Shown piece after piece: positions 1-55,702 of a stretch of DNA of 64,000 nucleotides. This DNA is from Squalus acanthias (lineage: Eukaryota): positions 132,806,001 through 132,870,000 of the forward strand of contig CM059431.1 of assembly GCA_030390025.1 (NCBI GenBank). The letters are read 5' to 3'. Numbering within the stretch: position 1 is the stretch's first letter; each line of letters opens with the position of its first letter. The notes below the pieces were generated by a model. It ran no database searches. It was not told the origin of the DNA and saw nothing but the letters and a program-made list of their open reading frames with translations. Both the position numbers and the translations under genes were made by a program.

Positions 1-3000
1 TCTACCTGTCGCAGATGCATCTGTCCATGACAGTATTGTCCTGTCTTCACACTGAGGTCACTGAGGTTGTGTTGTGTGGCACTACCACAGTGCTAAATGG
101 GATAGATTCAGAACAGATCTAGCAGCTCAAAACTGGGCATCCATGAGGTGCTGTGGGCCACCAGCAGCAGCAGAATTGTATTCCACCACAATCTGTAACC
201 TCATGGCCCGACTGTAAGCATCGAACGCAGGCCCCAAGTTCATTTCAGACTTTTTGAATGATTATTACCAACAGCCTGTTTGGAGAAGATGGGAGGGGCC
301 CAGGTGTTCGTGAACAGGAGATTCCAGCCAGGCCTACAAACTAATTATGGGAGAATGTCTGGGCAGACAGAATTCTCTGGGAAGACAATGGGTCTGGGGA
401 GGTGACTCATATGGTCACAAGCACCTAGATGAGATAGCCCCGAAGGCGGGAACCAGACAAAAGAGAGCCATTGTAAATTAATGGGAAGCCACTTAACCCA
501 GGATCAGGTGAGAAGTGTGGCCCATCATCTGCCATTATCACCAGCACCTAGTTGGGATAGCCCCGAAAGGCAGGAAACCAGACAAAGAAGACAAAGAAGG
601 GTGATTAAAAAGACATCACTGCAACTACACAGACCGGAGAGGACATAGAGAAGGCAGCTTTGGCCTTTCGCTCTCTCTCTCGCTTGCTCTAAACCACCAC
701 GAGCAACAAGAGCCTCGCCTTGCTCTTCGAACCTCGAAACTAGGACTTGGATACTGCATCGGCGATACGGAACCAGGAGACACGTTCTACACAGGGGAGC
801 AGCGAGCAAGAAAACGGACAATCAGGGTGAGCATTGTCCAAGCCCACGCATCCTTAAGACCACCGGTACTGTGTGAGGGGGTGTTGTGTGTCCCAACCAA
901 GCCAGAGGGGTTTAGTGGGGAGGTTCTGTGTGTATTATATAGTGTATGTTCCGGGGTTTGTGGGACAAGTCCGTGTTATACTCTGTATAGCAACACAGTG
1001 TGATTTTAGGCGTCTTAATACGAGACAGGGGCCTGTTCGACGGTCCAAGTTGTATTGTTGTACTATTTGTTTTACGCCACCAGGCATTTTACATACTGGA
1101 GGCGGGTGTGTGTATTAACTTTATTAAACACCGTACGGTTGAGTCCGAAAAGCTTGTCTGTGTCCCAATCCTGTTCACCGTAATTCCTGTCGTATAGAAC
1201 TAAGTAGGGGGGGGGGTGATTCGAACCACCAGAGCAAACCACCTACAGGACATATCCCTCACTCTACCATTACCATCAAGCCAGGGACCAAACCTGGTTC
1301 AATGAGGAGTGTAGAAGAGCATGCCAGGAGCAGCACCAGGCGTACCTAAAATGAGGTGCCAACCTGGGGAAGCTACAACACAGCACTACATACATGCTAA
1401 ACATTGGAAGCAGCATGCTATAGACAGAGCTAAGCGATCCCACAACCAATGGATTAGATCAAAGCTCTGCAGTCCTGCCACAACTAATCACGAGTGGTGG
1501 TGGACCATTAAACAAGTAGCAGGAGGAGGAGGCTCCATGAATATCCCCATCCTCAATGATGGCGGAGCCCAGCACGTGAGTGCAAAAGACAAGGCTGAAG
1601 CATTCGCAACCATCGTCAACCAGAAGTGCCGAGTGGATGATCCATCTTGGCCTCCTCCAGAGGTCCCCAGCATCACAGAAGTGAGTCTTCCAATTCGATT
1701 CATTCCACATGATATCAAGAAATGGCTGAATGCACTGGATACAGCAAAGGCTATGGGCCCCAACAACATCCTGGCTATCATGCTGAAGACTTGTGCTCCA
1801 GAACTAGCCATGCCTCTGGCCAAGCTGTTCCAGTACAGCTACAACACTGGCATCTAACCAACAATGTGGAAAATTGCCCAGGTATGTCCTGTCCACAAAA
1901 AGCAGGACAAATCCAATTCGGCCAATTACCACCACATCAGTCTACTCTCAATCATCAGCAAATTGATGCAAGGTTTAATCAACAGTGCTATCAAGCGGCA
2001 CTTACTCACCAATAACCTGCTCACTGATGCTCAGTTTGGGTTCCGCCAAGACTACTTAGCTCCAGACCTCATTACAGCCTTGGTCCAAACATGGACAAAA
2101 TGGCTGAATTCCAGAGGTGAGGTGACAGTCACTGTTCTTGACATCAAGGCAGCATTTGACCGAATGTGGCATCAAGGAGCCCGAGTAAAACTGAAATCAA
2201 TGGGAATCAAGGGGAAAACTCTCCACTGGCTAGAGTCATACCTAGCACAAAGGAAGATGGTTGTGGTTGTAGGAGGCCAATCATCTTAACCCCAGGACAT
2301 CGCTGCAGGAGTTCCTCAGGGCAGTGTCCTAGGCCCAACCATCTTCAGCTGCTTCATCAATAAACTTCCCTCCAACATAAGGTCAGAAGTGGGGATGTTC
2401 ACTGATGATTGCACAGTGTTCAGTTCCATTTGCAACTCCTCAGATAATGAAGTAGCCCGTGCCCGCATGCAGCAAGACCTGGACAACATTCAGGTTTGGG
2501 CTGATAAGTGGCAAGTAACATTCGCGCCTCACAAGTACCAGGCAATGTCCATCTCTAACAAGAGAGAGTCTAACCACTGCCCCTTGACATTCAACGATAT
2601 GCCATCACCGAATCCCCTACCATAAATATCCTGGGGGTCACCATTGACCAGAAAGTTAGGGCTGGGTATTCTGCGGTGAGTGACTCACCTCCTGACTCCC
2701 CAAAGCCTTTCCACCATCTACAAAGCACAAATCAGGAGTGTGATGGAATACTCTCCACTTGCCTGGATGAGTACAGCTCCAACAACACTCAAGAAGCTCG
2801 ATACCATCCAGGACAAAGCAGCCCGATAGATTGGAACCCCATCCACCACCGGCGTACCGTGGCTGCAGTGTGTACCATCTACAAGATGCACTGCAGCAAC
2901 TCGCCAAGGCTTCTTCGGCAGCACCTCCCAAACCTCTACCACCTAGATGGACAAGGGCAGCAAGCGCATGGGAACACCACCACCTCTAAGTTCCCCTCCA

Positions 3001-3226
3001 AGTCACACACCATCCTGACGTAGAAGTATATCGCCGATCCTTCATCGTCGCTGGGTCAAAATCCTGGAACTCCCTCCCTAACAGCACTGTGGGAGTACCT
3101 TCACCACACGGACTGCAGCGGCTCAAGAAGGCGGCTCACCACCACCTTCTCAAGGGCAATTAGTGTTGGACAATAAATGCTGGCCTTACCAGCGATGCCC
3201 ACATCCCATGAACGGATTTTTAAAAA
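1..3226 (+). mobile_element. LINE-X copy (CR1-group-like non-LTR retrotransposon, APE-RT, decayed), interrupted by a solo LTR at 213-1247
   Basis: ORF fragments 1321-1857, 1864-2289 and 2389-2625 carry RT motifs (QFGFR, LDIKAAFD, FTDD). Stops and frameshifts are present. The A-rich 3' end is near 3226. Colinear with 31219-34770. Confidence 0.9.
213..1247 (+). mobile_element. Solo LTR-like insertion (1035 bp)
   Basis: TGTA...TACA termini and a 4-bp TSD with one mismatch (CGAC 209-212 / GGAC 1248-1251). It interrupts LINE-X where another copy reads contiguously (CATGGCCCGGCATATCCC). Internal ~45-bp duplication (420-467 / 543-590) and ATTAAA near 1123. Confidence 0.8.
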
Positions 3227-11268: not shown

Positions 11269-11295
11269 CTGCAAGAAAAAGGACAGCATCTGAGT

Positions 11296-18769: not shown

Positions 18770-19914
18770 TTAATTCAAACCAGTCTGATGAGGCGATCAC
18801 GGACCGCCCTTCCGGAAGGCCAATTGAGTGGCTGCCTCCTCCCTCGGTCCTCGTTCTCCTCCTCTCCCTCTTCCTCCTCCTGAGGTGGTCCTGCAATCCC
18901 TGGTGGCAAGGGCTGGGCCCTCATGATGGCCAAGTTGTGGAGCATGCAGCAGACCACCACGAAATGGGACACCCGCTCAGCCGAGTACTGGAGGGCTCCT
19001 CCCAAGCGGTCAAGGCAGCTGAACCGTTGCTTCAGCAGGCCGATGGTCTGCTCGATGATGTTCCTGGTGGCAGCATGGCTCTCATTATATGAGTGCTAGG
19101 CACGAGTGGTGGGGATGTGAAGGGGAGTCATGAGCCAGATGAAGAGCAGATAGCCCTTGTCTCCGAGCAGCCAGCCACGAACTTGATGTGGTGGCTGGAA
19201 GAGTGCTGGCACACCAGCCTGGCACAGGATGAAGGCATCATGGCTGCTGCCAGGATAGCGGGCATTGACATTGAGGTTTCGCTGTCTGTGGTCACACACC
19301 AACTGCACATTAAGTAGTGGTAGGCTTTGCGGTTAAGGAAGATCTCAGGATTGTTCTGCGGTGCCCACAAAGCCATATGGTACAGTCAATGGTTCTCTGC
19401 ACCATGGGGAATCCCACTATCCTGGCAAAGCCACATGCATGCTCATCCTGCTTCTCTCTGGTGATGGGGAAGGAAATCTAGTCCCTTCTTCTACTGTAGA
19501 GAGCCTCTGTGACCTCCTGGATGCAGCGATGGACAGTGAACTGCGAGATGTTAGCTATGTCTCCTGTTGTAGACTGGAAGGCTCCGCTAACGAACAAATT
19601 GAGGGCGACGATGACCTTGACTGCCACTGGGAGAGCTGTGGTCACCCTGGTCTGAGGCTGGAGGTCTGGTTGCAGGAAGTGGCAGAGTTCTGTGACCACC
19701 TCCTTGATGAAGCGGAGCCTTCTAATACACTGCTCCTCACTTAATTGGAGGTAGGAGAAGCGCTCTTGGAATACCCTCGGAGGGTAAGACCGCCTGTTGA
19801 AAGCCCTGATGCCCTCCTCCTCCCTCTGGCCACATGTTCCAATCTTTCTCGCTGCCTCCGCTCCCTCCGCCGTAGATCCTGGAGGGCGAGGTCGACTGCC
19901 AGTACAGCCCCCAT
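18770..19914 (-). pseudogene. Harbinger transposase pseudogene (C)
   Basis: Fragments 19478-19984, 19096-19308 (LLGDKGY) and 18775-19005 are homologous to 8424-9584. Confidence 0.9.
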
Positions 19915-20577
19915 TAATGTAACCAAGTGTAGCAGTTTGATTCTTTGAAGAAGAAATGTAACTAATTTTTAGTTGCCACAACACTCCCGATACAAAAGAA
20001 CCTTGAATTTACAAACTGACAAGAAACCACAGAAACTGCACTAACCTGACAGCTGCGAGTCATTACTGGTGATCCCTTTAAATAACGTCCCTGGAGCCGG
20101 CTTCCTGTTGCTTTGCGCCAGCTCTCCCTGTCGGTGTTTACTCCAGGCGCTAAGGTAGGTGGCGACAATCAATTTAGCAGATCGGGCGATCAGTGAGTGT
20201 TGCACACTCACTGATGTCACGATCCACCTGATGTTGATGTTCCCGGCGATAACGCTTACCCCCGGCACTACGGGGGGGGGGGGGCGCGGGATTTGGCGTG
20301 CGCCGCTGGATTCGCCTCGCCCCGGTGATACTGGTCTAGTGCCCCCGTTAGCGCCATCTGCTGGCACTAATGGGAGGTGCCACGGGGACAAATTTTTCCC
20401 CCTTGGAGTCCACGTACCTCAGAATCTACTGCATATCTTGATATACCAATATCATGACATAATTCAATGTCATTGTTGTACTTAGTTACTAACCCAAGTA
20501 CAATTGCTCATTTTGACCCGAATTGTGTGCCAGTATGAAATATTAATTTTGTCTAAAACCAAATGCTCCTGTATAAG

Positions 20578-24574: not shown

Positions 24575-25812
24575 AAAAGCGCTCTTCAATTAGACGGTGG
24601 TGAGCGTCCATCCCAGGTGTGGGCCGTCTACCTGGAAGCCTCTGGTGCTCCCCCCAGTCCTCCTCTTCCTCTTCCTCTTCCTCCTCTTCCTCTTCCTCTT
24701 CCTCCTCTTCCTCCTCTTGTGGCTCCTGAGCTTAACCCTCTGGCACAATTGCTGGTGGTAACAACTGGCCTCTCATGATTGCCAGATTGTGGAGCATGCA
24801 GCAAACCACCACAAATCTGGACACCTTCTCAGCCCAACAGTGCAGGGCACCTCCTGACCAGTCAAAACATCTAAACCTCTGCTTGAGGACCCCAGTGGTC
24901 TGCTCAATGATATTCCTGGTGGCTGACTGGCTCTCATTGTATGAGTGCTCAGCTGGTGTCTGGGGATTTCTCAGGTGACTCATGAGCTTTATCATCAGAG
25001 GGTATCCCTTGTCACCTAGTAGCCAGCCATGCACATTGCACTGGGGCTCAAAGATCAGTGGGATGGATGACTGTCTCATTATAAATGCATCGTGGCAGCA
25101 TGCTAGATAGCAGGGATACACCTGCATGATGCGCTGCCGGAATCCTCAATCCCCTTCCTGTTCCTGAACACCTCCGAGTTTAAATGAGGTGCTCGCCTGG
25201 CCACATGTGTGCAGTCAATGGCTCCCTGGACCATGGGAATCCTGCAATCCTGTCAAATCCTAGAGCTCTCTGCCTCTGGTCTTCTCTGGCAATACGCAAT
25301 GATATATAGTCATTCCTCAGAGCATATAGAGCTGCAGAGACCTCACTTAGGCAGACATGCACAGAGGATTGTGAGATGTGACTTATATCACCTATGGCAG
25401 CCTGGAAGGTTCCAGTAGCATAAAAATTAAGTGCTACTGTGACCTTGACTGCCACAGGCAATGCAGTCTTGGCTGTGCTGTGACATCTGAATCTTCCATC
25501 CACGAGGCCACAGATTTCTGTAATGACCTCCTTGGTAAAGCGCAGCCTCCTCATGCACTGGTCTTGGGTCATGTGAATGTAGGAGTATTGCCCTCTGAAG
25601 ACCCTGGGTGGATAGCGCCCCCTGCTGAGAGCCCTACTCGCTCTCCTGTCTCTCCCTCCTGCAGCAGCTGGTGCTGCTCTACCTGCCCTCATCTCCTCCA
25701 ATTCTTCATGCAGAGCAAGGGGAGCCCATAGCAAGATGCCATTACCAAGCACTTCCTTTCTCCTGGTGACTCCTATAAGGTGTCCAATAAGGTAGGGTAG
25801 CACAGCACTCAC
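24575..25812 (-). pseudogene. Harbinger transposase pseudogene (D)
   Basis: ORFs 25180-25812 and 24732-25127 (LLGDKGY, RNIIEQT), with a (GAG/GAA)n acidic tail at 24658-24718. Confidence 0.9.
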
Positions 25813-25829
25813 TCTTTTTAGGGGAATGG

Positions 25830-25904
25830 TTGCATAGTGGTAATGTCACTGGGATAGTAATCCAGAAGACTGGACTAATGATCCAGAGATGTGAGTTCAA
25901 ATCC
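25830..25904 (+). promoter_or_regulatory. Pol III type-2 internal promoter-like boxes
   Basis: A-box-like TTGCATAGTGG (25830-25840) and B box GTTCAAATCC (25895-25904). Confidence 0.7.
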
Positions 25905-25968
25905 CACCACGGCAGCTGGGGAATTTAAATTCAGTTAATTAAATAAATCTGGAATAAAAAGCTAGTAT

Positions 25969-26231
25969 TGTGGCGGATCGCCACCTAAAACGGGCATAAT
26001 CCACTCTTCCGTCTGTGGACAAATTTCCAGCACCTTCCCCTTTAAGGCACCTTACCTTTAAGGCAGAAGGGGGCAGGGCCTCAGGTTTTACCCGGCGAAT
26101 TCTGGGAGTTTTTCCAGAGAATTCTGGGAGCAGCTCTCTCAGCCATTTTGTGTGCCATGCAGTGAATTAAAGTTTTCTTGTTTTCCACATATGGATTCAG
26201 CCTCCATTCGTGTTTCGCGGCAGCCTCAACA
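25969..26231 (+). repeat. 5' LTR
   Basis: Differs from the 3' LTR by 3 substitutions and 1 indel (by eye). Confidence 0.95.
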
Positions 26232-26232
26232 T

Positions 26233-26246
26233 TGGTGACCCCGACG
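26233..26246 (+). promoter_or_regulatory. Primer-binding site, tRNA-Trp
   Basis: TGGTGACCCCGACG is complementary to the 3' end of tRNA-Trp. Confidence 0.9.
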
Positions 26247-26271
26247 CTCAGAACGTATTCCGAGCACTGCA

Positions 26272-29200
26272 ATGGCGGACACGAACGCAGTTTCCGTGAA
26301 ACTGCCGGAGTTTTGGGAAAACCAGCCCGAAGCCTGGTTTCTCCAAGCTGAATCTCGCTTCCGGCTGCGAAATATCACCACAGATGGGACGAAGTACGAC
26401 TATCTCGTCACATCACTCAGTAGCGCCGCAGTTTCCAAGGTTTGGACAACGCTGCAGAACCCACCAGAGGAAGGCAAGTACGCACATCTCAGAACAGCGC
26501 TCCTTAAAAAATTTACGGCCTCGGCATACCAGCGAAACTGCCACCTCCTCGACCTTCCAGGCCTCGGTGATGCCTCACCGTCAGACCTCCTCTCCCACAT
26601 GCTCTCCCTCACCGACGAGAGCCCACCCAGATCCCTCTTCCGCACGCTGTTCATCCGCCAGCTCCCTCTCAGCATCCGCCCAGCAATCGTGGCGTCCGGC
26701 CTGACGAACCTGGAAGCCCTGGCCGATGAGGCCGACAAGCTGCTGTCCGCTCACTCCAGCCGCGACGTCACTCCGGACCAGGCAGCCAATGCCTGGGCGC
26801 GCCCCTCACCATCCAGCACACGGCCACAAGGGCCTGTCACCAGGCCCACGGGGCCTTCACGCCCCACTAACCCGGGCCACTGTTACTACCACGCACGGTT
26901 CGGCGCCAGGGCACAACGGTGCACACCTCCCTGCTCTTTCAAGTCCGCCCCCGTTCCAGCCCCCGCGATGGCCGTGGGCCACGCGGGCTCCCTGCTGTTC
27001 GTCACGGATGACAAAACCGGCCGCCGGTTCCTGTGCGACACTGCGGCTCAGCACAGCATCATCCCGGCCTCCTCCCTCGACATCCAAAAGGGCAAACGAG
27101 GACCGGCGCTGGCTGCTGCTAACGGCTCGGAAATCCGGACGTACGGCACCCGGACAGTCACCCTCGACCTCGCTGGTCACCGCTACCGATGGGAGTTCAT
27201 CACTGCCAAGGTGCTCTCCCCCCTCATCGGCGCAGATTTCCTGTGTGCCCACGGCTTACTGGTAGACATCCCTCGTCACCGCCTCGTGGACATGAACACC
27301 ATGTCCCCCATCCTGGGTGCCATGGCCCCCCGTCAACCCGCCGACATGGTGTCACAGTGCCACGCCCGGGCCACGGATGACTACTCGGCACTCCTGGCCG
27401 AATTCCAGCCCTTACCAATCCGACCTTCTCCGCGGAGGCCGTCAAACACGGGGTGGAACACTTCATCCCCACCACAGGCCCCCCAGTGTACGCCCACGCC
27501 CGCAGGCTGGACCCGGCCAAACTGGAGATCGCGCGGACCGAGTTTGCCACCATGGAACAGCTCGGCATCATCCGCCGCTCCAACAGTCCCTGGGCCTCCC
27601 CACTCCACATCGCCCCCAAACCAGGCGGAGGTTGGCGCCCCTGCGGGGATTATCGCCGCCTCAATGACGCCACCACCCCTGATCGGTACCCCATGCCGCA
27701 CATTCAGGACTTCTCGGCTAGACTGGCCGGCCGCTCAGTCTTTTCCAAGGTCGACCTGGTGCGCGGCTACCACCAAGTCCCCGTCCACCCCGCGGACGTC
27801 CCCAAGACGGCCGTAATCACCCCCTTCGGCCTGTTCGAGTTCCTGCAGATGCCCTTCGGCCTCAAAAACGCGGCCCAGGCATTCCAACGGCTCATGGACT
27901 CGGTCCTTCGGGACCTGAAGTTCCTGTTCGTCTACCTGGACGACATCCTGGTAGCCAGTTCCTCCAAGCAGGAACACCTCGAACACCTTCGCATCCTGTT
28001 CGGGCGCCTCAGCGACCACGGGCTCATCCTCAGCCCAGCCAAATGCCAGTTCGGCCTGGACAAGATCGACTTCCTCGGCCACCACATCACCCATGCTGGG
28101 GCCATTCCCCTGCCCACCAAGGTGCAGGCCGTTCAACAATTTCCTCGCCCCACCACCATCAAAGGCCTCCAGGAGTTCCTTGGGATGGTGAATTTCTATA
28201 ACCGCTTCATCCCCAAAGCGGCGTCCCTCATGAGGCCCCTGTATGAAGCCCTCCGGGGCAGGAGCGGCAAGATGGCGGTCGAATGGACGGCAGATGCGTC
28301 CGCCGCCTTCGATTCCACCAAGACCGCGCTCGCCAACACCACCCTGCTCGCGCACCCACGGCCCAATGCCAGGGTAGCGCTCACCACGGACGCCTCCGAC
28401 CACGCGGTCGGCGCCGTGTATGAGCAGTGGGTCGACGGCGCCTGGCAACCACTTGCCTTCTTCAGCCGCCAACTACGCCCCACGGAGGTCAAGTACAGCA
28501 CCTTCGACTGCGAGCTCCTCGCGCTGTTCCTGGCGGTCCGCCATTTCCGGTTTTTGCTTGAGGGCCACCCCTTCACTGCGTTTGTCGACCACAAGCCCCT
28601 GACATTCGCAATGGCAAAGACAACCGACCCCTGGTCCGCCAGGCAGCAGCGCCAGCTCGCGGCAGTGTCCGAGTTCACCACGGACATCCAACACGTCTCC
28701 GGCCGAGACAATGTGGTAGCCGACTGCCTCTCCCGCCCCGCCATCCACGCCGCACACCTAGCAGTCGACTACGCTCAACTCGCAGCAGACCAGATCACCG
28801 ACCCTGATCTGCTCTCCGCACCCACCAACCTACCAGGGCTACGCCTGGCCGACGTCGCCTGTGGCCCGACCGCAGTCACGGTCAAGTGCGACATATCCCT
28901 ATGTCAACCTCGGCCCGTCGTCCCAGCGTCCTGGCGCCGCCGGGTATTCGACATTCTCCACAACCTCTCCCACCCCGGCGCCCGCGCATCCATCAAATTG
29001 GTAGCCAACTGCTTTGTCTGGCGCGGCCTTCGCAAGGATGTGCGTACTTGGGCCAACTCCTGCCTAGCCTGCCAACGGGCCAAGGTACAGCAACACACGA
29101 AAGCACCCCTCGAGGAGTTTACCGTCCCCTCGCGGAGATTCGACCACATCCACGTGGACATCGTCGGGTCCCCTGCCGCCGTCGCAAGGCCACACGCACT

Positions 29201-30084
29201 TGCTGACCATCGTTGACCGCACCACACGCTGGCCTGAGGCAATTCCACTGACCTCTACCACCACCGCCGACATCGCCAGAGCCTTCGTCAGCACCTGGGT
29301 CGCACGGTTCGGCGTCCCCTCCGACATGACGTCGGACAGAGGTCCGCAATTTACCTCTGAACTCTGGACTGCCGTCGCACGCAATCTCGGGGTGACCATT
29401 CACCGCACCACAGCGTACCACTCCCAAGCCAACGGATTGTGTGAGCGGTTCCACAGATCCTTGAAGGCATCTCTTCGAGCCAGCCTCCAAGATGGCGCCT
29501 GGACCGACCGACTTCCGTGGGTCCTCCTCGGCCTGCGCACCGCGGTTAAAGAAGACCTCCACGCATCGGCAGCAGAGCTCGTGTACGGTCATCCGCTGTG
29601 CGTACCCGGTGAGTTCCTGCCCACCGCCACGACACCCTGGTCAGCCGACCAGCAACGCCACGACTTCGCCTCACCGGCGCTGCAGTTCGCCCCGGTGCCC
29701 ATTGCCCGACACGGCGAATCCACCTCACACGTCCCACTAAGCCTGCACCAGGCACGGTTTGTTTTCGTCTGGCACTACGCCCACCGCGGACCCCTTCAAC
29801 CCCCGTACGACGGGCCCTACAAGGTGCTACAGGCTGGGGACAAATTTTTCACCCTGCAAGTGGGCGATAGGACTGAAAAAGTGTCGGTGGACCGACTGAA
29901 GCCAGCACACTCGGAGCCTGGGGAGCAGGTCCCTGTAGCTCGTCCACCTCCACGCGGCCGACCTGCCCTCAAGCCGGTTCACCCAGGCTGCTCCACGCCC
30001 AGCCGTTCCACGTCCACCGGCGTCCTACAAGAGCCGCTCCGGCCGGCCCATCAGACCGCCGCACCGTCTCGTCCACACCTCCTA
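26272..30084 (+). pseudogene. gag-pol: gag-pol polyprotein with three frameshifts (~27405, ~29168, ~29960-30020)
   Basis: Gag knuckle C-X2-H-X9-C-X3-C (CYYHARFGARAQRCTPPC), protease FLCDTAA, RT YLDD, RNase H TDAS, integrase H-H-C-C plus D/SDRG/E, and GPY motif. A C-terminal SRSGR motif ends at TAA 30084. Confidence 0.9.
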
Positions 30085-30105
30085 AGCGGATTCTGGGGGG
30101 AGCTG

Positions 30106-30367
30106 TGTGGCGGATCGCCACCTAAAACGGGCATAATCCACTCTTCCGTCTGTGGACAAATTTCCAGCACCTTCCCTTTAAGGCACCTTACCTTTAAGGC
30201 AGAAGGGGGCGGGGCCTCAGGTTTTACCCAGAGAATTCTGGGAGTTTTTCCAGAGAATTCTGGGAGCAGCTCTCTCAGCCATTTTGTGTGCCATGCAGTG
30301 AATTAAAGTTTTCTTGTTTTCCACATATGGATTCAGCCTCCATTCGTGTTTCGCGGCAGCCTCAACA
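30106..30367 (+). repeat. 3' LTR (preceded by polypurine tract GGGGGGAG)
   Basis: Direct repeat of 25969-26231. Confidence 0.95.
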
Positions 30368-32193
30368 GTATCAGTAATGGTGACCATGAAACTTACCGGA
30401 CTGTCATTAAAAACCCATCTGGTTCACTAATGTCCTTTAGGGAAGGAAATCTGCCGTCTTTACCTGGTCTGGCCTATATGACTCCAGACCCACAGCAATG
30501 TGGTTGATTCTTAACTGCCCTCTGAAATGGCCTAGCAAGCCACTCAGTTGTAACAACCGCTACGAAACAAAATAATAAAAATGAAATCAGACAGACCACT
30601 TGGCACCAGCTACGGACATGGCAATGGCAACAGCACACCCAGCCCAGTCAACCCTGCAAAGTCCTCCTCTGGGGACTTGGGCCAAAATTGGGAGAGCTGT
30701 CCCACAGACTAGTCAAGCAACAGCCTGACATAGCTCATACTCACATAATCATACCTTTCAGCCAATGTCCCAAACTCCTCCATCACCATCCCTGGGTATG
30801 TTCTATCCCACCAGCAGGACAGACCCACCAGGGGTGGCGGCACAGTGGTATACAGTCGGGAAGGAGTGGCCCCTGGGAGTCCTCAACATTGACTCCGGAC
30901 CCCATGAAGTCTCATGGCTTCAGGTGAAGCATGGACAAGTAAACTTCTGCTGATTACCACCTACCGCCCTCCCTCAGCTGATGAATCAGTACTCCTCCAT
31001 GTTGAACACCACTTGGAAGAAACACTGAGAGTCGCAAGGGCACAGAATGTACTCTGGGCGAGGGATTTCAATGTCCATCACCAAGAGTGGCTCGGTAGCA
31101 CCAGCACTGACTGAGCTGGCTGAGTCCTGAAGGACATAGCTGCCAGTCTGGGCCTGTGACAGGTGGTGAGAGAACCAACACGAGGGAAAAACCTACTTGA
31201 CCTCGTCCTCACCCAACTACCTGTTGCAGATGCATCTGTCCATGACAGTACTGGTAGCAGTGACCACCGCACAGTCATTGTGGAGATGAAGTCCCGTCTT
31301 CACACTGAGGACACCCTCAATCGTGTTGTGTGGCACTACCACCGTGCTAAATGGGATAGATTCAGAACAGATCTAGCAGCTCAGAACTGGGCATCCATGA
31401 GGCGCTGTGAGCCATCAGCAGCAGCAGAATTGTATTCCACCACAATCTGTAACCTCATGGCCCGGCATATCCCTCACTCTACCATTACCATCAAGCCAGG
31501 GGATCGACCCTGGTTCAATAAGGAGTGTAGAAGAGCATGCCAGGAGTAGCACCAGGCGTACCAAAAAATGAGGTGCCAACCTGGGGAAACTGCAACATGC
31601 ACTCCTAAAAAGCAGAAGCAGCATGCTATAGACAGGGCTAAGTGATTCCACAATAAACAGATCAGATCAAAGCTCTGCAGTCCTGCCACATCCAGTCGTG
31701 AATGGTGGTGGACCATTAAACAACTAACGGGAGGAGGAGGCTCCTCCATGAATATCCCCATCCTCAATGATGGTGGAACCCAGCACGTGAGCGCAAAAGA
31801 CAAGGCTGACGCGTTTGCAACCATCTTCAGTCAGAAGTGCCGAGTGGATGATCCATATCGGCCTACTCCTGAGGTCCCCACCATCACAGAAGCCAGTCTT
31901 CAGCCAATTCGATTCACTCCACGTGATATCAAGAAACGGCTGAGCGCACTGGATACAGCAAAGGCTATGGGCCCTGACAACATCCTGGCTATCATGCTGA
32001 AGACTTGTGCGCCAGAACTAGCCGCGCCTCTAGCCGAGCTGTTCCAGTACAGCTACAACACTGGCATCTATCCGACAATCTGGAAAACTGCCCAGGTATG
32101 TCCTGTCCAAAAAAGCAGGACAAATCCAATCAGGCCAATTACCGCCCCATCAGTCTACTCTCAATCATCAGCAAAGTGATGGAAGGTGTCATC

Positions 32194-33447
32194 TTTTGAG
32201 GAGGTAACAAGGAGGGTAGATGACGGGTAGTGCGTTTGATGTAGTGTATATGGACTTTAGCAAGGCTTTTGATAAGGTTCCACATGGCAGACTGGTCACG
32301 AAGTTAAAAGTCCATGGGATCCGGGGCAAAGTGTCAAGTTGGATTTAAAACTGGCTCGGAGACAGGAAGCAGAGGGTAATGGTTGATGGGTGTTTTTGTG
32401 ACTGGAAGGCTGTTGCCAGTGGGGTTCTGCAGGGCTCAGTACTAGGTCCCTTGCTTTTTGTGGTATATATCAACGATCTTGACTTGAATATAGGGGGTAT
32501 GATTAAAAAGTTTGCAGATGATACTAAAATCGGCTGTGTGGTTGATACTGAAGAAGGAAGCTGTAGACTGCAGGAAGATATCAATAAATTGGTCAGGTGG
32601 GCAGAACAGTAGCAAATGGAATTCAATCTGGAGAAGTGTGAGGTAATGCATTTGGGGAGGGCTAACAAGGAAAGGGAATACACATTAAATGGTAGGACAC
32701 TGAGTAGTGTAAAGGAACAAAGGGACCTTGGAGTGCATGTCCACAGAACCCTGAAGGTAGCAGGCCAAGTAGATAAGGTGGTTAAGAAGGCATACGGAAT
32801 GCTTGCCTTTATTAGCCATGCCATAGAATACAAGAGCAGGAGAGTTATGCTTCAACTGTATAAAACACTAGTTAGGCCTCAGCTAGAGTACTGCGTGCAG
32901 TTCTGGTCACCACATTACAAGAAAGATGTGATTGCACTAGAGAGGGTACAGAGGAGATTTACGAGGATGTTGCCGGGAGTAGAGAATCTTAGCTATGAGG
33001 AAAGACTGGGTAGGCTGGGTCTGTTTTCCTTGGAACAGAGGAAGCTGAGGGGAGACCTTATTGAGGTGTATAAAATTATGAGGGGCATAGATAAAGTGGT
33101 TAGAAAGGATCTATTTCCCTCAGCAGAGGGGTCAAAAACCAGGGGGCACAGATTTAAAGTAATTGGGGGAAGGTTTAGAGCGGATTTGAGGGGAAATTTC
33201 TTCACCCAGAGGGTTGTGGGGGTCTGGAACTCACTGCCTGAAAGGGTGGTAGAGGCAGGAACCCTAACCACATTTAAAAAGTACTTGGATGTGCTCTTGG
33301 GATGCTCTAACCTGCAGGGCTATGGACCAAGAGCTGGGAAGTGGGATTAGGCTGGAAAGCTCTTTGTTGGCCGGCGCGGACACGATGGGCCGAAATGGCC
33401 TCCTTCTGTGCTGTAACTTTCTATGATTCTTTCTATGATTCTATGAT
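32194..33447 (+). mobile_element. 5'-truncated CR1 LINE
   Basis: RT C-terminal ORFs 32379-32612 and 32616-33350, (TTCTATGA)n tail, and TCATC on both sides. Confidence 0.9.
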
Positions 33448-34981
33448 TCATCGACAGTGCTATCAAGTGGCACTTACCAATAACCTGCTCACTGATGCCC
33501 AGTTTGGGTTCCGCCAAGAGCACTCAGCTCCCGACCTCATTACAGCCTTGATCCAAACATGGACAAAGGAGCTAAATTCCAGAGGAGAACTGAGAGTGAC
33601 TGCCTTGACATCAAGGCAGCATTTGACCGAGTGTGGCATCAAGGAGCCCTAGTGAAACTGAAGTCAATGGGATCGGGGGGAAAACTCTCCACTGGTTGGA
33701 GTCATACCTAGCACAAAGGAAGATGGTTGTGGTGATTGAAGGTCAATCATCACAGCCACAGGACATCGCTGCAGGAGTTCCTCAGGGCAGTGTCCTAGGC
33801 CCAACCATCTTCAGCTGCCTCATCAATGACCTTCTCTCCAACATAACGTCATAAATGGGGATGTTCGCTGATGACTGCACAGTGTTCAGTGCCATTCACA
33901 ACTCCTCAGATAATGAAGCAGTCCATGCCTGCATGCAACAAGACTTGAACGACATTCAGGCTTGGGCTGATAAGTGGCAGGTAACACTCGCACCACACAA
34001 GTGCCAGGCAATGACTATCTCCAACAAGCGAGAGTCTAACCACCGCCCCTTGACATTCAATGGCATTACCATCGCCGAATCCCCCACCATCAATATCCTG
34101 GAGGTCACCATTGACCAGAAGCTTAACTGGACCAGCCACATAAATACTGTGGCAACAAGAGCAGGTCAGAGGCTAGGTATTCTGTGGCGAGTGTCTCACC
34201 TACTGACTCCCCAAAGCCTTTCTACCATCTACAAGGCACAAGTCAGGAGTGTGATGGAATACTCTCCACTTGCCTGGATGAGTGCAGCTCCAATAACACG
34301 CAAGAAGCTCGACATCATCCAGGACAAAGCAGCCCGATAGATTGGAACCCCATCCACCACCTTAAACATTCACTCCCTCCACCACCGGCGTATCGTGGCT
34401 GCAGTGTTTACCATCTACAAGATGCACTGCAGCAACGCACCAAGGCTTCTTCGGCAGCACCTCCCAAACCCGCGACCTCTTCCACCTAGAAGGACAAGGG
34501 CAGCAGACGCATGGGAACACCACCACCTCCAAGTTCCCCTCCAAGTCACACACCATCCTGACTTAGAAGTATATCACCAATCCTTCATCGTCGCTGGGTC
34601 AAAATCCTGGAACTCCATACTTAACAGCACTATGGGTGTACCTTCACCACATGGACTGCAGCGGTTCAAGAAGGCGGCTCACCACCACCTTCTCAAGAGC
34701 AATTAGGGATGGGCAATAAATGTTGGCCTTGCCAGCGATGCCCACATCCCATAAAATGAATTTAAAAAAAGATCAAGTCCTGAGAGAATTTCCGGACAAA
34801 ATGTTGATTGAGTGTTGGTGAAATCCTGACAAAGTTTGCCGGAAGGTCTCCCGATGTGTCTCAACAGTCCTGTTCAAACGTAGTATAGTCAATTGATCTC
34901 ACTCAGCAAGTCAACATTGAAAGCTGACTGTGGCTTTAAGTAGCGCTCAAAATCCTCAGCAAGGACTTGATTACTTGAGAA

Positions 34982-43650: not shown

Positions 43651-43659
43651 TTACTCTAG

Positions 43660-44276: not shown

Positions 44277-46890
44277 AGTAAACTCATGGCTAAGGTTAGA
44301 ACATCTGGAGTCAGGGGACAAGTAGCAGAATGAATAGAAAGCTGGCTACAAAACAGAAAACAGAGAGTAGGGGTAACTCAGACTGGCAAAAGATGGGAAG
44401 TGGTTTTGCACAAGGATCAGTGCTGAGACCACTGTTGTTCATCATTTACATCATTTGGACTCTGGAATCAGACATACAATTTCAAAATTGGCAGACGACA
44501 TCAAATTGGGGGGTGTAGTTAATACAGAGGAGGACTGTGACAAAATACAGGCAGACTTTAAATAAAATTGCAGAATGGGCGTGTAATTGGCAAATTAACT
44601 TCAATATAGATAAGTGTGAGGTGATATATTTTGGTAGGAAGAATAAGGAGGCTGCATACTCCTTGGAAAATAAGTGTCTAAATTGGGTAAAGGAGCAGAG
44701 GGATATGTGGGTACAGATACACAAATCACTAATAGTAGCGACGCTGGTTAAACTATCCATAAAAATAGCAAACAAAGCACTGGAGTTCATTTCTAGAGGG
44801 ATAGAATTGAAAAGCAGAGAAGTTATGTTAAACTTGTATGGCACCTTTGTTAGACCACACTTGGAGTACTGTGAACAGTTATAGAGGCACTGGAGAAGGT
44901 GCAAAAAAGATTTACAAGAATGATACCAGAACTGAGAGGTTATACCTATCAGGAAAGATTGAACAGGCTGGGGCTCTTTTCTCTAGAAAAGAGAAGACTG
45001 AGGGGTGACCTGTGACCTGATAGAGATCTTTAAGATTATCAAAAGGTTTGATAGGGTAAACGTAAAGAAGATGCTTCCACTTGCGGGGTTGATGGGGTTA
45101 GATAAAAAATGGTGGGACGAGGCTCGTGTGGAGCATAAACACTTGTAGAATTTGCAATATATCGCGATTTTATTAATAAGGAGAAAAACACATAGTTTCG
45201 TTCAAACAGCTTTTATTTCAGCAGAATGCTGTCAGGTTTTCAAAGTGGACACAAGCAGCTTGTAAAATGGCCGCCGCACCTCGTGGCAGAACATTCTAGA
45301 CTTTTCAACAGGCAGACAAGATGGCGTTCCAATAAACATTTGTGCAAGATCGATTAAGACTCAGCACATTGAAGATAATACACGAGACATCATGGGTTCA
45401 CAGTATACACATAAATACTGAAATCGGTCTCCCAGGTACGAATAAAAGTTATTGTACCAAGTAATCAAGAACCCATCCAAAGACATTAATATGTAAAATC
45501 CCAACGACTCTACGATGAGAGAGCCGTTAGCGGGTAGTTACAGAAAACGCTTGGAAGCCCCAAAACCCCTCCAGGGAGAACACCGACCGATTAAACAATG
45601 GGAGAAATATTAACAGGTACTCAGACAATTACGAGTAGCCCCGAAACCCATTAAAACGAAGATCACCATATACAAGACATTTGAGCGCCAAAACCCTAAC
45701 AAAAGAAAAGACATTAAGGTTGGGCGGGAAACGGAAGATTTTGCACTATAATTGCAAGCTCCAAACCGTCCATCTTTCTCTTATCTTGCTGGTGTTTATC
45801 CTCGTGGCTGCCCTTGACTCGCCGTCTTGTTCCTGCTTGCCTCGTGTCTCTTTTCAAAAAGACTGTTGAACTTTACGATCCGCTCGAATCTACCTCGTGT
45901 CGTGTCGCGAAGACCTGTGTAGAACTGGGCTCTGAAGCCTTGAAGCGGGCGCACCATTCCGATAAGTCGGTAAACGGTGTTGGAACCGAAGGCCCGAGAT
46001 GAGATGAGATGAGATGAGATGAGAAGAGAAGAAGACCATACTTATCGCCACGGTCAGTAAGCCCCGACCGCGCCTGTAGGTCGAATAGACATTTTCCTTG
46101 CCAGGAAGACTTCTTCGAGTTTTACAGAACTGACAGGAAGACTACTTTTCGAATTCTATCGCATCCGTGCGAGGGCACAGGAAGACTCTTTTTTGAGTAG
46201 AGTCGGAACTCCGAGGACAACACAGATCTTCATGACAGCAGACGTTCCAGCCTGCTAGCCGGAGCAGAAACGAGTAAACAAGTGGGGCCAGGAGACCCCC
46301 TGATCGACACGTGGGTGCTGCGGTGAAAAACATCCGATCAGAGTTTTCGGAATTCTCCGAGTTATCACGAGTGGTGAGCATGAGTCTCGAATCCTACGAA
46401 TCTAGCTTAGGACAGATATTGATAGGGGAGGGTTTCAAGTATTAAGGATAATTGTAATGTGTGCCCCCATTTACGATGTGTGGTTCGTTCCTCGTTTCCC
46501 TGAAATTAGTTACATAACTGCGTGTAAGATTGTACTGTCATTAATCTGTGCTTATGACATGTATTTCATAATCTTAAGTACTATGCAATAAAGATTTTCC
46601 ATTTCGTACCATTCAACCGAGTCTACCTGAGTTTCATCTCCATTACTGCTCTCGCATCTAAGTCCAGTGTCTAGAACCGTAAGGGTGAGTGGGTCGAACC
46701 ACTCACAGGTGTGTCTAGTGCTCCCAGACTGGCCGGAGACCAGAACAGGCAACAAGGCCTAAACCCGCACTAGCACCCGGGCTGCACAGAGCCACACGAA
46801 TCTCACAGGCTGAGAGACATAAACCCTTACACACTGGCGTGGGACTGCTGGGCCAAATGGCCTGTTTCTGTGCTGTAAATACTATGTAAT
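44277..46890 (+). mobile_element. Decayed CR1 3' part, interrupted by a solo LTR
   Basis: RT C-terminus (RPHLEYC). The 3' UTR resumes at 46832. Confidence 0.8.
45144..46831 (-). mobile_element. Solo LTR-like insertion (1688 bp)
   Basis: TGTA...TACA termini and a perfect CACT TSD (45140-45143 / 46832-46835). Minus-strand AATAAA at 45212-45217. (GAGAT)n at 45996-46025. Orientation is tentative. Confidence 0.8.
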
Positions 46891-48640
46891 CTTCCTTTGG
46901 GCTAGGTATGACTCCAGCCACTGGAAAGTTTTCCTCATGATCCCCACTGACTTTAATTTTATTAGGGCTGTTTGGTGCCACGCTCGGTAAAATGCTGCCT
47001 TGATGTCAAGGGCAGTCACTCTCACCTCACCTCTGGAATTCAGCTCTTTTGTCCATGTTTGGACCAAGGCTATAATGAGGTCTGGCACTGAGTGGTCCTG
47101 GCGGAATCCAAACTGAGCATCTATGAGAAGGTTATTGGTGAGTAAGTGCTGCTTTATAGCACTGTTGATGACTCCTTCATCACTTTGATGATTGAGAGTA
47201 GGTTGATAGGATGGTAATTGGCCGAGTTGGATTTGTCTTGCTTTTTTGGACAGGACATACCTGGGCAGTTTTCCAGATTGTCGGATAGATGCCAGTGTTG
47301 TAGTTGTACTGGAACAGCTTGGCTAGAGGCGTGACTAGTTCTGAAGCACAAGCCTTTAGCACTGCAGCCAGGATGTTGTTGGGACCCATAGCCTTTGCTG
47401 TATCCAGTGTGTTCAGCCGTTTCTTGATATCACGTAGAGTGAATCGAATTGGCTGAAGACTAGCTTCTGTGATGGTGGGCACCTCAGGAATAGGCCGAGA
47501 TGGATCATCCACTCAGCACTTCTGACTGAAGATGGTTGCAAACGCTTCAGCCTTGTCTTTTGCACTCGCATGCTGGGCTCCGCCATCATTGAGGATGGGG
47601 ATGTTCATGGAGCCTCCTCCTCTCGTTAGTTATTTAATTGTCCACCACCATTTGTGACTAGATGTGGCAGGATTGCAGAGCTTTGACCTGATCTGTTGGC
47701 TGTGGGATTGCTTAGCCCTGTCTATAGCATGCTGCTTCCGTTGTTTAGCATGCATGTAGATCTGTGTTGTAGCTTCACCATGATGCACCTCATTTTCAGG
47801 TATGCTTGGTGCTGCTGGCGGCATGCTCTTCTACACTCCACATTGAACCAAAGTTAGTCACCTGGCTTGATGGTAATGGTAGAGTGAGGGATATGCTGGG
47901 CCATGAGGTTACAGATTGTGGTGAAATACATTTCTGCTGCTGCTGATGGCCCACAGCGCCTCATGGATGCCTAGTTTTGATCTTCTAGATCTCTTCTTAA
48001 TCTGTCCCACTTAACACGGTGATCGTGCCACACGACACGATGGAGATTGTCCTCAGTGTGAAGATGGGTCTTCGTCTCCACAAGGACTGTGCAGTGGTCG
48101 CTCCTATGAATACTGGCAGGGACACATGTATCTACAACGGGTAGGTTTGTGAGCACAAGGTCAAGTAGGTTATTCGATCATGTTGGTTCTCTCACCACCT
48201 GCTGCAAACCCAATATGGCAGCTATGTCCTTCATGACTCAGCCAATTTGGTCACTGTCAATGGTGGTAACACTGATCCACTTTTGATGATGGACATTGAA
48301 TTCCTCTTTCCAGCGTACATTTTGAGCCCTCAGTGCGTCCGTCAAGTGGTGTTCAACAGGGAGGAGTACTGATTCATCAGCTGAGGGAGGGCGATAGGTG
48401 GTAATCAGCAGGATGGTGTGCCTTCATTGTGTCTGAGTTTGATGCCTAGGTTGCAGTTAAGTGATCTGTCCTGTTTTATTCTTCTTATCCTTTTTTGTAG
48501 TGGTTTGATACAACTGAGTGGCTTGCTAGGCCCTTTCAGAGGATAGTTAAGAGTCAACCATGTTGATGTTGGACTGGAGTTACATAAGGACAACAGGTAT
48601 CCTGTCCCTAAAGGCACTCAATTCATTAGACCAGCTGTGC
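46888..48640 (-). mobile_element. LINE-X 5' half, including part of the 5' leader
   Basis: APE and RT fragments. 48410-48640 matches the leader at 30410-30640 (GGCCTAGCAAGCCACTCAGTTGTA). Confidence 0.8.
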
Positions 48641-53714: not shown

Positions 53715-54056
53715 ATAGAATATAAGAACAGGGAGTTTATACTAGAACTGTATAAAACACTAGTTAGGCCACAGCTAGAGTACTGCGTACAGTTCTGGTC
53801 ACCACATTACAGGAAAGATGTGATTGCACTAGAGAGGGTACAGAGGAGATTTACGAGGATGTTGCCGGGGCTGGGGAATTTTAGCTATGAGGAAAGATTG
53901 TATAGGCTGGGGTTGTTTTCTTTGGAACAGAGGAGTCTGAGGGGAGACTTAATTGAGGTGTATAAAATTATGAGGAGCCAAGATAGCGTGGATAGGAAGG
54001 ACCTATTTCCCTTAGCAGAGAGGTCAATAACCAGGGAGCATAGATTTAAAGTAATT

Positions 54057-55702
54057 TTTTTTTATTCCTTCATGAGATGTGGGCATCACTGACAAGGCCA
54101 GCATTTATTGCCCATCCCTAGTTGCCCTAGACAAGTTGGTGGTGAGCCGCCTTCTTCAACCGCTGCAGTCCGTGTGGTGAAGATACTCCCACAGTGTTGT
54201 TAGGGAGGGAGTTCCAGGATTTTGGCCCAGCGACGATGAAGGAATGGTGATATGCTTCCAAATCAGGATGGTGTGTGACTTGGAGGGGAACTTGGAGGTG
54301 GTGGTGTTCCCATGTGCCTGCTGCCCTTGTCCTTCTAGGTAGTAGTGGTTGCGGATTTGGGAGGTGCTGCAGTCGAAGCTTTGGCAAGTAGCTGCAGTGC
54401 ATCTTGTAGATGGTACACACTGCAGCCACGGTACGCCAGTGGTGGAGGGAGTGAATGTTTAAGGTGGTGGATGGGGTGCCAATTAAGCGGACTGCTTTGT
54501 CTTGGATGGTGTCGAGCTTCTTGTGTGTTGTTGGAGCTGCACTCATCCTGCAAGTGAAGAGTATTCCACCACACTCCTGACTTGCGCCTTGTAGATGGTG
54601 GAAAGTGCTTTGGGAAGTCAGGAGGTGAGACACTCGCCGCAGAATAACCAGCCTCTGACCTACTCTTGTTGCCACAGTATTTATGTGGCTGGTCCAGTTA
54701 AGTTTCTGGTCAATGGTGACCCCCAGGATATTGATGGTAGGGGATTCGGCGATGGTAATGTTGTTGAATGTCAAGGAGCGATGGTTAGACTCTCGCTTGT
54801 TGGAGATAGTTATTGCCTGGCACTTGTGTGGCGCAAATGTTACCTGCCACTTATCAGCCCAAGCCTGAATGTCATCCAGGTCTTGCTGCATGCGGGCATG
54901 GACTGCTTCATTATCTAAGGAGTTGTGAATGGTACTGAACACTGTGCAATCATCAGCGAACATCGGCACTTCTGACCTTATGATGGAGGGAAGGTCATTG
55001 ATGAAGCAGCTGAAGATGGTTGGGCCTAGGACACTGCCCTGAGGAACCCCCTCAGCGATGTGATGATTGACCTTCAACCACCACAACCATCTTCCTTTGT
55101 GCTAGGTATGACTCCAGCCAGTGGAGAGTTTTCCCCCCCGATTCCCATTGACTTCAGTTTTACTAGGGCTCCTTGATGCCACACTCGGCCAACTGCTGCC
55201 TTGATGTCAAGGGAAGTCACTCTCACCTCACCTCTGGAATTCAGCTCTTTTGTCCATGTTTGGACCAAGGCTGTAATGAGGTCTGGAGCTGAGTGGTCCT
55301 GGCGGAACCCAAATTGAGCATCTGTGAGCAGGTTATTGGTGAGTAAGTGCTGCTTGATAGCACTGTCGACGACCCTTTCCATCACTGTGCTGATGATTGA
55401 GAGTAGACTGTTGAGGCGGTAATTGGCTGGATTGGATTTGTCCTGCTTTTTGTGGACAGGACATACCTGGGCAGTTTTCCACATTGTCGGATAGATGCCA
55501 GCATTATAGCTGTACTGGAACAGCTTGGCTAGAGGCGCAGCTAATTCTGGAGCACAAGTCTTCAGCATGACAGCCGGGATGTTGTCAGGTCCCACAGCCT
55601 TTGCTGTATCCAATGCGCTCAGCCGTTTCTTGATATCACATGGAGTGAATCGAATTGGCTGAAGACTGGCTTCTGTGGTGGTGGGTCCTCAGGAGGAGGC
55701 CA
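54057..55702 (-). mobile_element. 5'-truncated LINE-X with poly(A)
   Basis: RT ORFs 55074-55613 and 54127-55086, flanked by AATT. Confidence 0.9.

What the first reader, a model, noticed from the sequence alone, without database searches (positions are those of the whole stretch)
25821..34770. ORF1-less LINE with a tRNA-like Pol III head and no internal Pol III terminator
Seen: after removing the Gypsy and CR1 insertions, a ~3.3-kb element remains. It runs A box, B box, leader (~360 nt from 5' end to ATG, ending in an A-rich stretch), ATG 30581, a single APE-RT ORF and an A-tail. A second copy (48410-48640, minus) has the same leader joined to APE sequence, so the join is probably not a chance SINE neighbour. 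By eye the sense strand has no TTTT run. Other copies have one only at the 3' end (3217) or at one mutated site (46989), whereas neighbouring CR1s have many. Known: Pol III terminates at runs of four or more T, and Pol III heads are reported for a few Ingi-type LINEs. Inference: this is an autonomous protein-coding LINE transcribed by Pol III, which would need cap-independent translation and could spawn SINEs by internal deletion.
Basis: partly seen in the sequence, partly recalled or inferred. Interest (0 to 1): 0.8.

Follow-up and report, generated by a model that had tools for sequence, protein, structure and literature searches.

The report
Shark LINE with tRNA-type promoter head
This is a worn copy of a known shark and ray jumping gene (a Zenon LINE) that is built from end to end like a product of RNA polymerase III, the enzyme that normally makes only short non-coding RNAs, although it codes for a 970-residue protein.

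Summary
Real, and a family trait. Without the Gypsy and CR1 inserts a 3.3-kb LINE remains; 28 of 29 head-selected copies run into coding sequence. The family is known: elasmobranch Zenon (PMC13343379; no ORF1, poly-A). Its five published shark and ray consensuses all begin with this A/B-box head, yet the paper's text never mentions tRNA, promoter or polymerase. The 3,316-nt consensus has no sense TTTT or TVTTT; TTT is 0.25-0.28 of expectation, against 0.72-2.6 in 65 related ORFs. TTTT absence alone is not significant (P 0.11); TTT depletion is (P 0.003). T-runs of four or more appear at the 3' end (10 of 29 copies) behind AATAAA, as in polyadenylated Pol III SINEs. A 490-nt SINE family arises by internal deletion. 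Correction: ATG 30581 is out of frame; no in-frame AUG precedes the endonuclease, so translation must be non-canonical. Best reading: Pol III makes the full-length RNA (about 0.7), which is also translated (about 0.5). No transcript evidence. The scan noted this family twice before elsewhere in this genome.

The parts
25821..25916 (+). tRNA-like head; 5' end of the element
   Evidence: 44 of 58 copies starting within the first 15 nt start at consensus positions 1-3, with unrelated flanks (includes head-selected loci). ARAGORN calls the head of L006 tRNA-Thr, 95 nt; 1 of 6 family loci tested, none in the window.
25830..25840 (+). A box (mutated in this copy; consensus fits TRGCNNARYGG, motif recalled)
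   Evidence: also in the five published elasmobranch Zenon heads, read by eye
25895..25904 (+). B box (fits GTTCRANNC, motif recalled)
   Evidence: clear in four of five species' published heads, one base short in HypSab (by eye)
25917..25968 (+). leader, first part (A/T-rich)
25969..30367 (+). Gypsy LTR retrotransposon, later insertion (not part of the LINE)
   Evidence: LTRs 25969-26231 and 30106-30367, 98.5% identical; 4-nt target duplication; 0 of 20 other LTR loci lie in this LINE's head
30368..30553 (+). leader, second part; retained in full by the derived SINEs; several short upstream ORFs
   Evidence: nine ATGs in the first 361 nt of the consensus
30581..30712 (+). short AUG-initiated ORF (48 codons in the consensus), out of frame with and overlapping the start of the APE-RT ORF
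   Evidence: the ATG is in all five species' Zenon-1 consensuses (by eye) but is ATA in 20 of 84 copies here
30554..32193 (+). APE-RT ORF, 5' part (basic N-terminal stretch, AP endonuclease, linker, start of RT); no in-frame Met before residue 287
   Evidence: (PF14529, PF03372 on L021; PF00078 on L014)
32194..33447 (+). 5'-truncated CR1 insertion (not part of the LINE)
33448..34706 (+). APE-RT ORF, 3' part, to the stop codon
   Evidence: (PF00078 on the copy at 54130-55101)
34699..34753 (+). 3' stem-loop containing AATAAA (34715-34720)
   Evidence: consensus 3246-3300 folds at z -3.55 against 200 shuffles; coordinates
34761..34770 (+). short T-run and A-tail; candidate worn Pol III terminator plus poly(A)
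   Evidence: T-run of 4 or more near the tail in 10 of 29 3' ends against 19 of 5,199 internal windows
46889..48640 (-). older copy of the family, 5'-truncated (no head), internally deleted
1251..3226 (+). another copy of the family with its 3' end (T5 before the A-tail)
54055..55701 (-). 5'-truncated copy with 3' end

Best explanation
An elasmobranch Zenon LINE whose ancestor, before sharks and rays split, took a tRNA-derived type 2 Pol III promoter as its 5' end. TFIIIC binds the internal A and B boxes; Pol III starts about 9 nt upstream of the A box and reads 3.3 kb because the sense strand has been purged of terminators; it stops in the T-run at the 3' end and the RNA is polyadenylated from AAUAAA, as in T+ SINEs. 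The uncapped RNA is translated without a conventional start, either by a -1 shift from the short AUG ORF into the APE frame or by non-AUG initiation in the A-rich stretch. The APE-RT protein binds the 3' stem-loop and inserts the RNA by target-primed reverse transcription. Internal deletions keep promoter and tail and so give complete SINEs in one step. Shown: anatomy, family-wide head, T depletion, 3' T-run, missing in-frame AUG, SINE derivatives. Inferred: polymerase, polyadenylation, translation route. Known for the class: target-primed reverse transcription.
For: Head and ORF are one unit: 40 of 40 scored hits span the leader-APE join; 28 of 29 head-selected loci hold at least 150 nt of coding sequence; 0 of 20 APE-selected loci have another shared 5' end. 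A and B boxes persist in five species while the spacer diverges (by eye). Consensus: 0 TTTT, 0 TVTTT sense; 14 and 8 antisense; TTTT and TVTTT are the minimal terminators in PMC8466645. With protein and codon usage fixed, T3 runs 5 vs 11.4 (P 0.003) and 4-of-5-T windows 1 vs 9.4 (P 0.005). TTT observed/expected 0.25-0.28 vs 1.06-1.40 in seven window neighbours and 0.72-2.6 in 65 related ORFs, all with TTTT. 3' T-runs of 4 or more in 10 of 29 ends vs 19 of 5,199 internal windows. Nine upstream ATGs and no in-frame Met before residue 287 fit poorly with cap-dependent scanning. ORF intact in the consensus; recurrent non-CpG variants 13 of 28 synonymous (P 0.049).
Against: TTTT absence alone is expected by chance under several nulls: synonymous shuffle P 0.11, codon-order shuffle 0.15, first-order Markov 0.22; under the Markov null T3 is not significant either (0.13). 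The strand is only 19-20% T, and most control ORFs are T-richer; 2 of 65 controls reach P<0.01 for 4-of-5-T windows and 2 of 65 for T4. Only two metagenome loci fall in the near clade. AATAAA plus poly(A) fits Pol II equally and all Zenons have poly(A). The 26-nt 3' window includes some flank; 8 of the 10 T-runs sit directly before the A-tail, and 8 of 29 ends have a single T. PMC10886601 states that non-LTR elements use Pol II and that Pol III processivity limits length. No conserved fold was found for the leader (z -1.47; covariation term 0.17). No canonical slippery heptamer or downstream structure (z -0.43, -1.85). The last third of the consensus rests on 6-11 copies.
Confidence: 0.5

Rival explanations
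1. Pol II only. The LINE captured a SINE-like 5' end that now serves as a Pol II promoter or enhancer, or rides along; the capped RNA ends at AATAAA. T-poverty comes from composition or from avoiding U-rich decay or silencing signals.
For: Standard view (PMC10886601). 3.3 kb is far beyond SINE lengths of 100-700 nt given there. TTTT absence alone P 0.11-0.22. All Zenons have poly(A). Lepidopteran Zenon derivatives lack a Pol III promoter (PMC6740152).
Against: Copies start at the tRNA-like +1; boxes are kept across five species; only T homopolymers are depleted (TTT 0.28; AAA 0.89, CCC 0.78, GGG 1.25); T-runs return at the 3' end; a capped RNA still lacks an in-frame AUG.
Confidence: 0.27
2. 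Division of labour. Pol III makes the full-length RNA that is reverse-transcribed, but the protein comes from capped Pol II read-through transcripts of the same or sister copies; the element would act as a giant SINE that still carries its own enzyme gene.
For: Accounts for the head, T depletion and 3' T-run without translation of uncapped RNA. Many copies with large internal deletions exist, and SINEs are mobilised in trans.
Against: The ORF is intact and leans synonymous, which is easiest to keep if the copied RNA is the translated one (inference). The start-codon problem remains.
Confidence: 0.2
3. Chance neighbour: a SINE inserted beside a truncated LINE at this locus.
For: A SINE with the same head exists in the genome; the window's second copy lacks the head.
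Against: The join recurs at 40 of 40 scored loci, in an older subfamily and in five species' published consensuses.
Confidence: 0.02

Closest known systems
Elasmobranch Zenon LINEs (CR1 group): SquAca_Zenon-1, CarCar_Zenon-1, RhiTyp_Zenon-1, ScyCan_Zenon-1, HypSab_Zenon-1 (PMC13343379, 2026)
   Same: No ORF1, single APE-RT ORF, A-tail, 3.24-3.31 kb. The first 400 nt of SquAca_Zenon-1 differ from my consensus at about four places by eye; the other four share head and leader.
   Different: Not a different family. The paper's main text has 0 hits for tRNA, promoter, polymerase, Pol III and start codon. The first 400 nt of the hagfish and coelacanth Zenons show no A/B boxes and do hold TTTT runs (by eye; the coelacanth 5' end is low quality).
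Persaeus SIDE and lepidopteran Zenon (PMC6740152)
   Same: Non-autonomous elements born repeatedly by internal deletion of a Zenon, keeping the 5' UTR and 3' end.
   Different: Persaeus has no tRNA homology and no Pol III promoter; the shark derivative has both and is a formal tRNA-SINE.
T+ SINEs (B2, Dip, Ves; PMC8466645)
   Same: A/B-box head, AATAAA, variable short T-run, A-tail; terminators worn in many copies.
   Different: Those are short, non-coding and mammalian, with polyadenylation shown by experiment. Here the RNA is 3.3 kb and coding, AATAAA lies about 45 nt before the T-run inside a stem-loop, and nothing is shown by experiment.
Bipartite RTE/Vingi-derived SINEs and RTE-1_DAn (PMC5786205)
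   Same: SINE body and tail come from LINE 5' and 3' ends; RTE-1_DAn is noted there as a LINE with a tRNA-like sequence.
   Different: There the tRNA head is added after deletion, and only RTE, Ingi, Vingi and R2 are listed as making ORF-less bipartite elements. Here the head is already on the autonomous CR1-group LINE. Pol III heads on some Ingi families are recalled; that paper was not held.
L1Tc/ingi and R2 (PMC3383444; R2 recalled)
   Same: LINE RNAs proposed to be uncapped and translated cap-independently.
   Different: Their 5' ends come from an HDV-like ribozyme acting on Pol II or Pol I transcripts, not from a Pol III start.

Membership tests
Zenon (CR1 group) | no ORF1 | tested here: met
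   360-nt leader holds only ORFs of 48 codons or fewer in the main consensus, 76 in an older subfamily; no other 5' end in 20 APE-selected loci
Zenon (CR1 group) | APE and RT in one ORF | tested here: met
   973-codon consensus ORF; Pfam hits on natural pieces
Zenon (CR1 group) | poly-A tail | tested here: met
   A-runs at most of 29 3' ends, short and worn
Zenon (CR1 group) | RT groups with Zenon references | tested here: inconclusive
   Quick tree of 107 rows: apart from the window's CR1s, in a 28-row clade (SH-aLRT 90) with moth, lancelet and unnamed 940-1,000-aa proteins; no labelled Zenon was available
Zenon (CR1 group) | sequence identity to published elasmobranch Zenon | tested here: met
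   A 13-nt leader motif occurs 7 times in the supplement, each in an elasmobranch Zenon row; first 400 nt compared by eye only
tRNA-derived SINE (SINE2), full-length element | internal A and B boxes at the 5' end | tested here: met
tRNA-derived SINE (SINE2), full-length element | short and non-coding | tested here: not met
   3.3 kb with a 973-codon ORF. Met by the 490-nt derivative.
tRNA-derived SINE (SINE2), full-length element | transcribed by Pol III | not testable with these tools
   only assembled contigs were offered
T+ SINE-type 3' end | AATAAA, terminator or its remnant, A-tail | tested here: inconclusive
   AATAAA at consensus 3261; T4 or longer in 10 of 29 ends, a single T in 8 of 29
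T+ SINE-type 3' end | beta and tau signals; polyadenylation of the Pol III RNA | not tested
   signals not looked for; polyadenylation needs experiment
DeuSINE (SacSINE1) and other conserved SINE bodies | Deu, Meta, V or CORE domain in the body | not testable with these tools
   No reference sequence was reachable. Leader motifs gave no relevant hit in the supplements of three SINE papers. From recall the Deu domain is a different sequence.
Ingi/Vingi/RTE LINEs with small-RNA heads | RT of the Ingi, Vingi or RTE clade | tested here: inconclusive
   No labelled references in my tree; PMC13343379 places the matching family in the CR1 group

The most novel reading that the evidence does not exclude
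A protein-coding, autonomous retrotransposon whose 3.3-kb RNA is made by Pol III, polyadenylated like a T+ SINE, and translated without a cap or an in-frame AUG; kept in sharks and rays since their common ancestor and repeatedly spawning ready-made SINEs by deletion.
Probability: 0.45. Interest if true: 0.87.

Novelty: new variant of a known kind. Interest (0 to 1): 0.62.

Why it matters
The LINE/SINE divide is usually drawn by polymerase: Pol II for coding LINEs, Pol III for short non-coding SINEs (PMC10886601). A natural 3.3-kb coding Pol III transcript would break that rule and the assumed length limit of Pol III. It would supply a natural cap-independent, non-canonical start signal, and a one-step route to SINE birth. 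All of this can be tested with a minigene in standard extracts. If Pol II does the work, it is still a described family with an unremarked SINE-type head and an unexplained start codon.

Tried and rejected
Deu domain/SacSINE1 identity of the leader: first suspected, dropped; untestable here, and motif searches of three papers' supplements gave no relevant hit. Gypsy targeting of the head: 0 of 20 LTR loci lie in it. Rfam: 2 weak matches in the window, none in the element. ARAGORN on the window: 0. IRES-like pseudoknot in the leader: no support; two of my hand-drawn helices were mis-registered and are not used. Coding constraint on the stretch before the APE domain: 8 of 17 differences synonymous in the APE frame against 31% expected, P 0.13, best of three frames, not significant. 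Readthrough from an in-frame ATG at consensus 304: a second stop blocks it in most copies here (A at 330 in about 70 of 84). Target-site duplications: none convincing in 9 SINE copies or the window copy. Expression: no RNA holder listed; contigs only, so no start, strand or level. Metagenome scan with P0012: 26 pattern hits, none confirmed. A/B-box pairs in relatives: 0 of 65 by a simple pattern; tRNA of 21 metagenome loci. ESM Atlas gave only generic endonuclease clusters. PDB: L1 and R2 proteins only, distant. Full-length T counts in published Zenons: supplement cells are cut at 400 letters. The careful tree did not finish; the quick tree is used. Novelty searches of the paper library; none returned a Pol III-transcribed autonomous LINE or this head. 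Repbase, Dfam, subscription journals and the Zenodo files were not searchable.
Full report
1. Observation. Removing the Gypsy (25969-30367) and CR1 (about 32194-33447) inserts leaves 3,296 nt with further copies in the window. A majority consensus from window copies and fetched loci is 3,316 nt; depth is 30-59 over the first 2,200 nt and 6-15 beyond, and one base in the thin part was set from the copies shown. The window copy is 94% identical to it and broken into three frames. Copies differ from the consensus by 3.7% on average (76 segments).

2. The head belongs to the LINE. A query across the leader-APE join gave 40 of 40 scored hits spanning it, from 6,409 candidates; 19 of 29 fetched loci reach within 25 nt of the 5' end. 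A head-only query gave 29 non-self loci, 28 with at least 150 nt of coding sequence. Of 20 loci chosen on APE sequence alone (20's 39 non-self hits), 4 reach the first 25 nt, one is split by an LTR, one meets a gap, and the rest are truncated. Among 88 upstream flanks only 5 pairs share sequence, none as a common extension. Of 12 loci picked with the older window copy, 8 reach the first 25 nt. Top hits favour young copies, so these are not genome-wide proportions.

3. Identity. The protein has APE and RT domains. Pieces occur in gene models of Heptranchias, Heterodontus and Pristiophorus. The nearest full-length relatives are 940-1,000-aa proteins at 35-40%, from lancelet, a moth and unnamed short contigs. 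A quick tree separates it from the window's CR1s. PMC13343379 (passages, one section, supplement rows cut at 400 letters) reports Zenon LINEs in five elasmobranchs, without ORF1 and with poly-A, absent from repeat databases. Its seven elasmobranch Zenon rows carry this leader, and SquAca_Zenon-1 matches my consensus by eye at all but about four of 400 positions. All five species' heads have an A box, four a clear B box. The main text never uses tRNA, promoter, polymerase, Pol III or start codon.

4. T-runs. The consensus has no TTTT and no TVTTT on the sense strand, and 14 and 8 on the antisense strand. For TTTT alone: synonymous shuffle mean 1.84, P 0.11; pooled third positions 2.75, P 0.04; base shuffle 4.0, P 0.016; Markov 1.5, P 0.22. 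Sub-terminator signals are stronger: T3 runs 5 vs 11.4 (P 0.003) and 4-of-5-T windows 1 vs 9.4 (P 0.005) with codon usage fixed; the Markov null, which absorbs TT depletion, gives 0.13. TTT is 0.28 of expectation while AAA, CCC and GGG are 0.78-1.25; seven neighbouring elements give 1.06-1.40 (one of them, 60036-61329, was scored on the + strand without checking its sense). Of 80 related metagenome loci, 65 with ORFs of 400 codons or more give 0.72-2.6 and 2-67 TTTT each; 15 were dropped as shorter or unmatched. Four controls reach P<0.01 on one measure, none on T3. Decayed copies hold 12 TTTT in 110 kb.

5. 3' end. AATAAA lies in a stable stem-loop (z -3.55) about 45 nt before a T-run and the A-tail. 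T-runs of four or more occur in 10 of 29 ends (8 directly before the A-tail), against 19 of 5,199 internal windows; 8 ends show one T. PMC8466645 (abstract and passages) describes this layout, and worn or re-extended terminators, for polyadenylated Pol III SINEs, and gives TTTT and TVTTT as minimal terminators. Slippage in old tails could also lengthen T-runs.

6. Translation start. ATG 30581 opens a 48-codon ORF; the APE frame is -1 to it in 48 of 56 copies and, by eye, in the stingray consensus. The first in-frame Met is residue 287, past the endonuclease. Close relatives elsewhere have an ordinary Met before the domain. The ATG is in all five species but reads ATA in 20 of 84 copies here, where an upstream ATG in the same frame is open. 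I rate a -1 shift just before the first APE strand and non-AUG initiation about equally; neither has positive support. PMC3383444 (passages) proposes cap-independent translation for uncapped L1Tc RNA.

7. SINE derivatives. A locus flank held leader joined to tail. Searching that join gave 39 non-self hits, nearly all spanning it. Sixteen of them plus the seed give a 490-nt element: LINE 1-343 plus 3171-3316, 95-96% identical to the LINE consensus, with one common junction and at least three others. Contigs of other, coded organisms show the same 5' start (X1, X9) and leader joined to tail at other points (X9, X13, X17). Several breakpoints point from LINE to SINE, as for Persaeus (PMC6740152, passages), but here with a Pol III promoter. 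How the LINE first got its head is not resolved.

8. Mechanism and verdict. The start at a tRNA-like +1, boxes kept across sharks and rays, sense-specific loss of terminators and near-terminators, and their return at the 3' end are what Pol III transcription of the whole element predicts. I put that at about 0.7, and translation of the same RNA at about 0.5 overall. All of it is sequence inference. PMC10886601 (passages) gives the opposing standard view. [quoted passage not shown] Other papers: PMC5499810 parts 1-3 of 6; PMC7245038, PMC4824008, PMC3747384, PMC5753468, PMC4494074 passages; supplement searches of PMC7245038, PMC4824008 (one file not searched) and PMC11481361. Unseen supplements (PMC5499810, the Zenodo files) and Repbase or Dfam notes could already name the head or the SINE. 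Two earlier AI notes on other copies in this genome reach the same idea; they are not independent support, and their listings do not name Zenon. Verdict: a known family with an unremarked, testable variant anatomy; interest 0.62.

Noticed in passing
L061-L080 (APE-selected copies): 6 of 20 5' ends fall at consensus 196-219; possible reverse-transcription stop or processing site inside the leader. Not tested statistically.
   Followed up: partly
window 25969; L075 153-250: A second, more distant (85%) LTR of the same Gypsy family sits at nearly the same leader position, in the opposite orientation; 0 of 20 other LTR loci are in the head.
   Followed up: yes
L081-L100: The Gypsy family is young (LTR hits 98-99% identical); about 5 of 20 loci look like solo LTRs.
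   Followed up: partly
consensus 275-505; window 30500-30712: An AUG-initiated ORF in the same frame survives in nearly all copy types: from ATG 275 where 361 reads A, from ATG 359 where a stop arose at 332; 2 of 84 copies have both the stop and the ATA. One event each, so anecdotal.
   Followed up: partly
consensus 45-66 and published Zenon heads: Between A and B boxes a hairpin like a long tRNA variable arm seems kept by paired changes across species (by eye); the family fold alone is not unusual (z 0.07).
   Followed up: no
L032, L040, L051, L054, L055: Many head-bearing copies have large internal deletions with differing breakpoints.
   Followed up: no
P0002, P0004, P0005, P0006: Shark gene models (named aldo-keto reductase-, SVEP1- and LRRC32-like, and one uncharacterized Ig-domain protein) include 74-85% identical pieces of this ORF; exonisation or annotation error.
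   Followed up: no
L117 120-490: The closest metagenome relative (37%) is ORF1-less with an in-frame AUG, a 1-kb UTR and 33 TTTT runs; its UTR resembles RTE-type ribozyme leaders (resemblance recalled, untested).
   Followed up: no
window 4955-5482, 8352-9584, 19478-20008, 25180-25845; 7364-8080, 11295-11915: Several nested Harbinger-like transposase and Myb/SANT-like ORFs (labels recalled, not scanned); the LINE's 5' end abuts one of them.
   Followed up: no
window 34971-36482: 503-codon ORF that looks like a Penelope-type RT with GIY-YIG nuclease (label recalled).
   Followed up: no
window 41633-43672: CR1 with a GDSL esterase ORF1 region read into the endonuclease.
   Followed up: partly
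window 57432-57508: Near-perfect 77-nt palindrome scoring weakly (35 bits, cut-off 59) against MIR6146.
   Followed up: no
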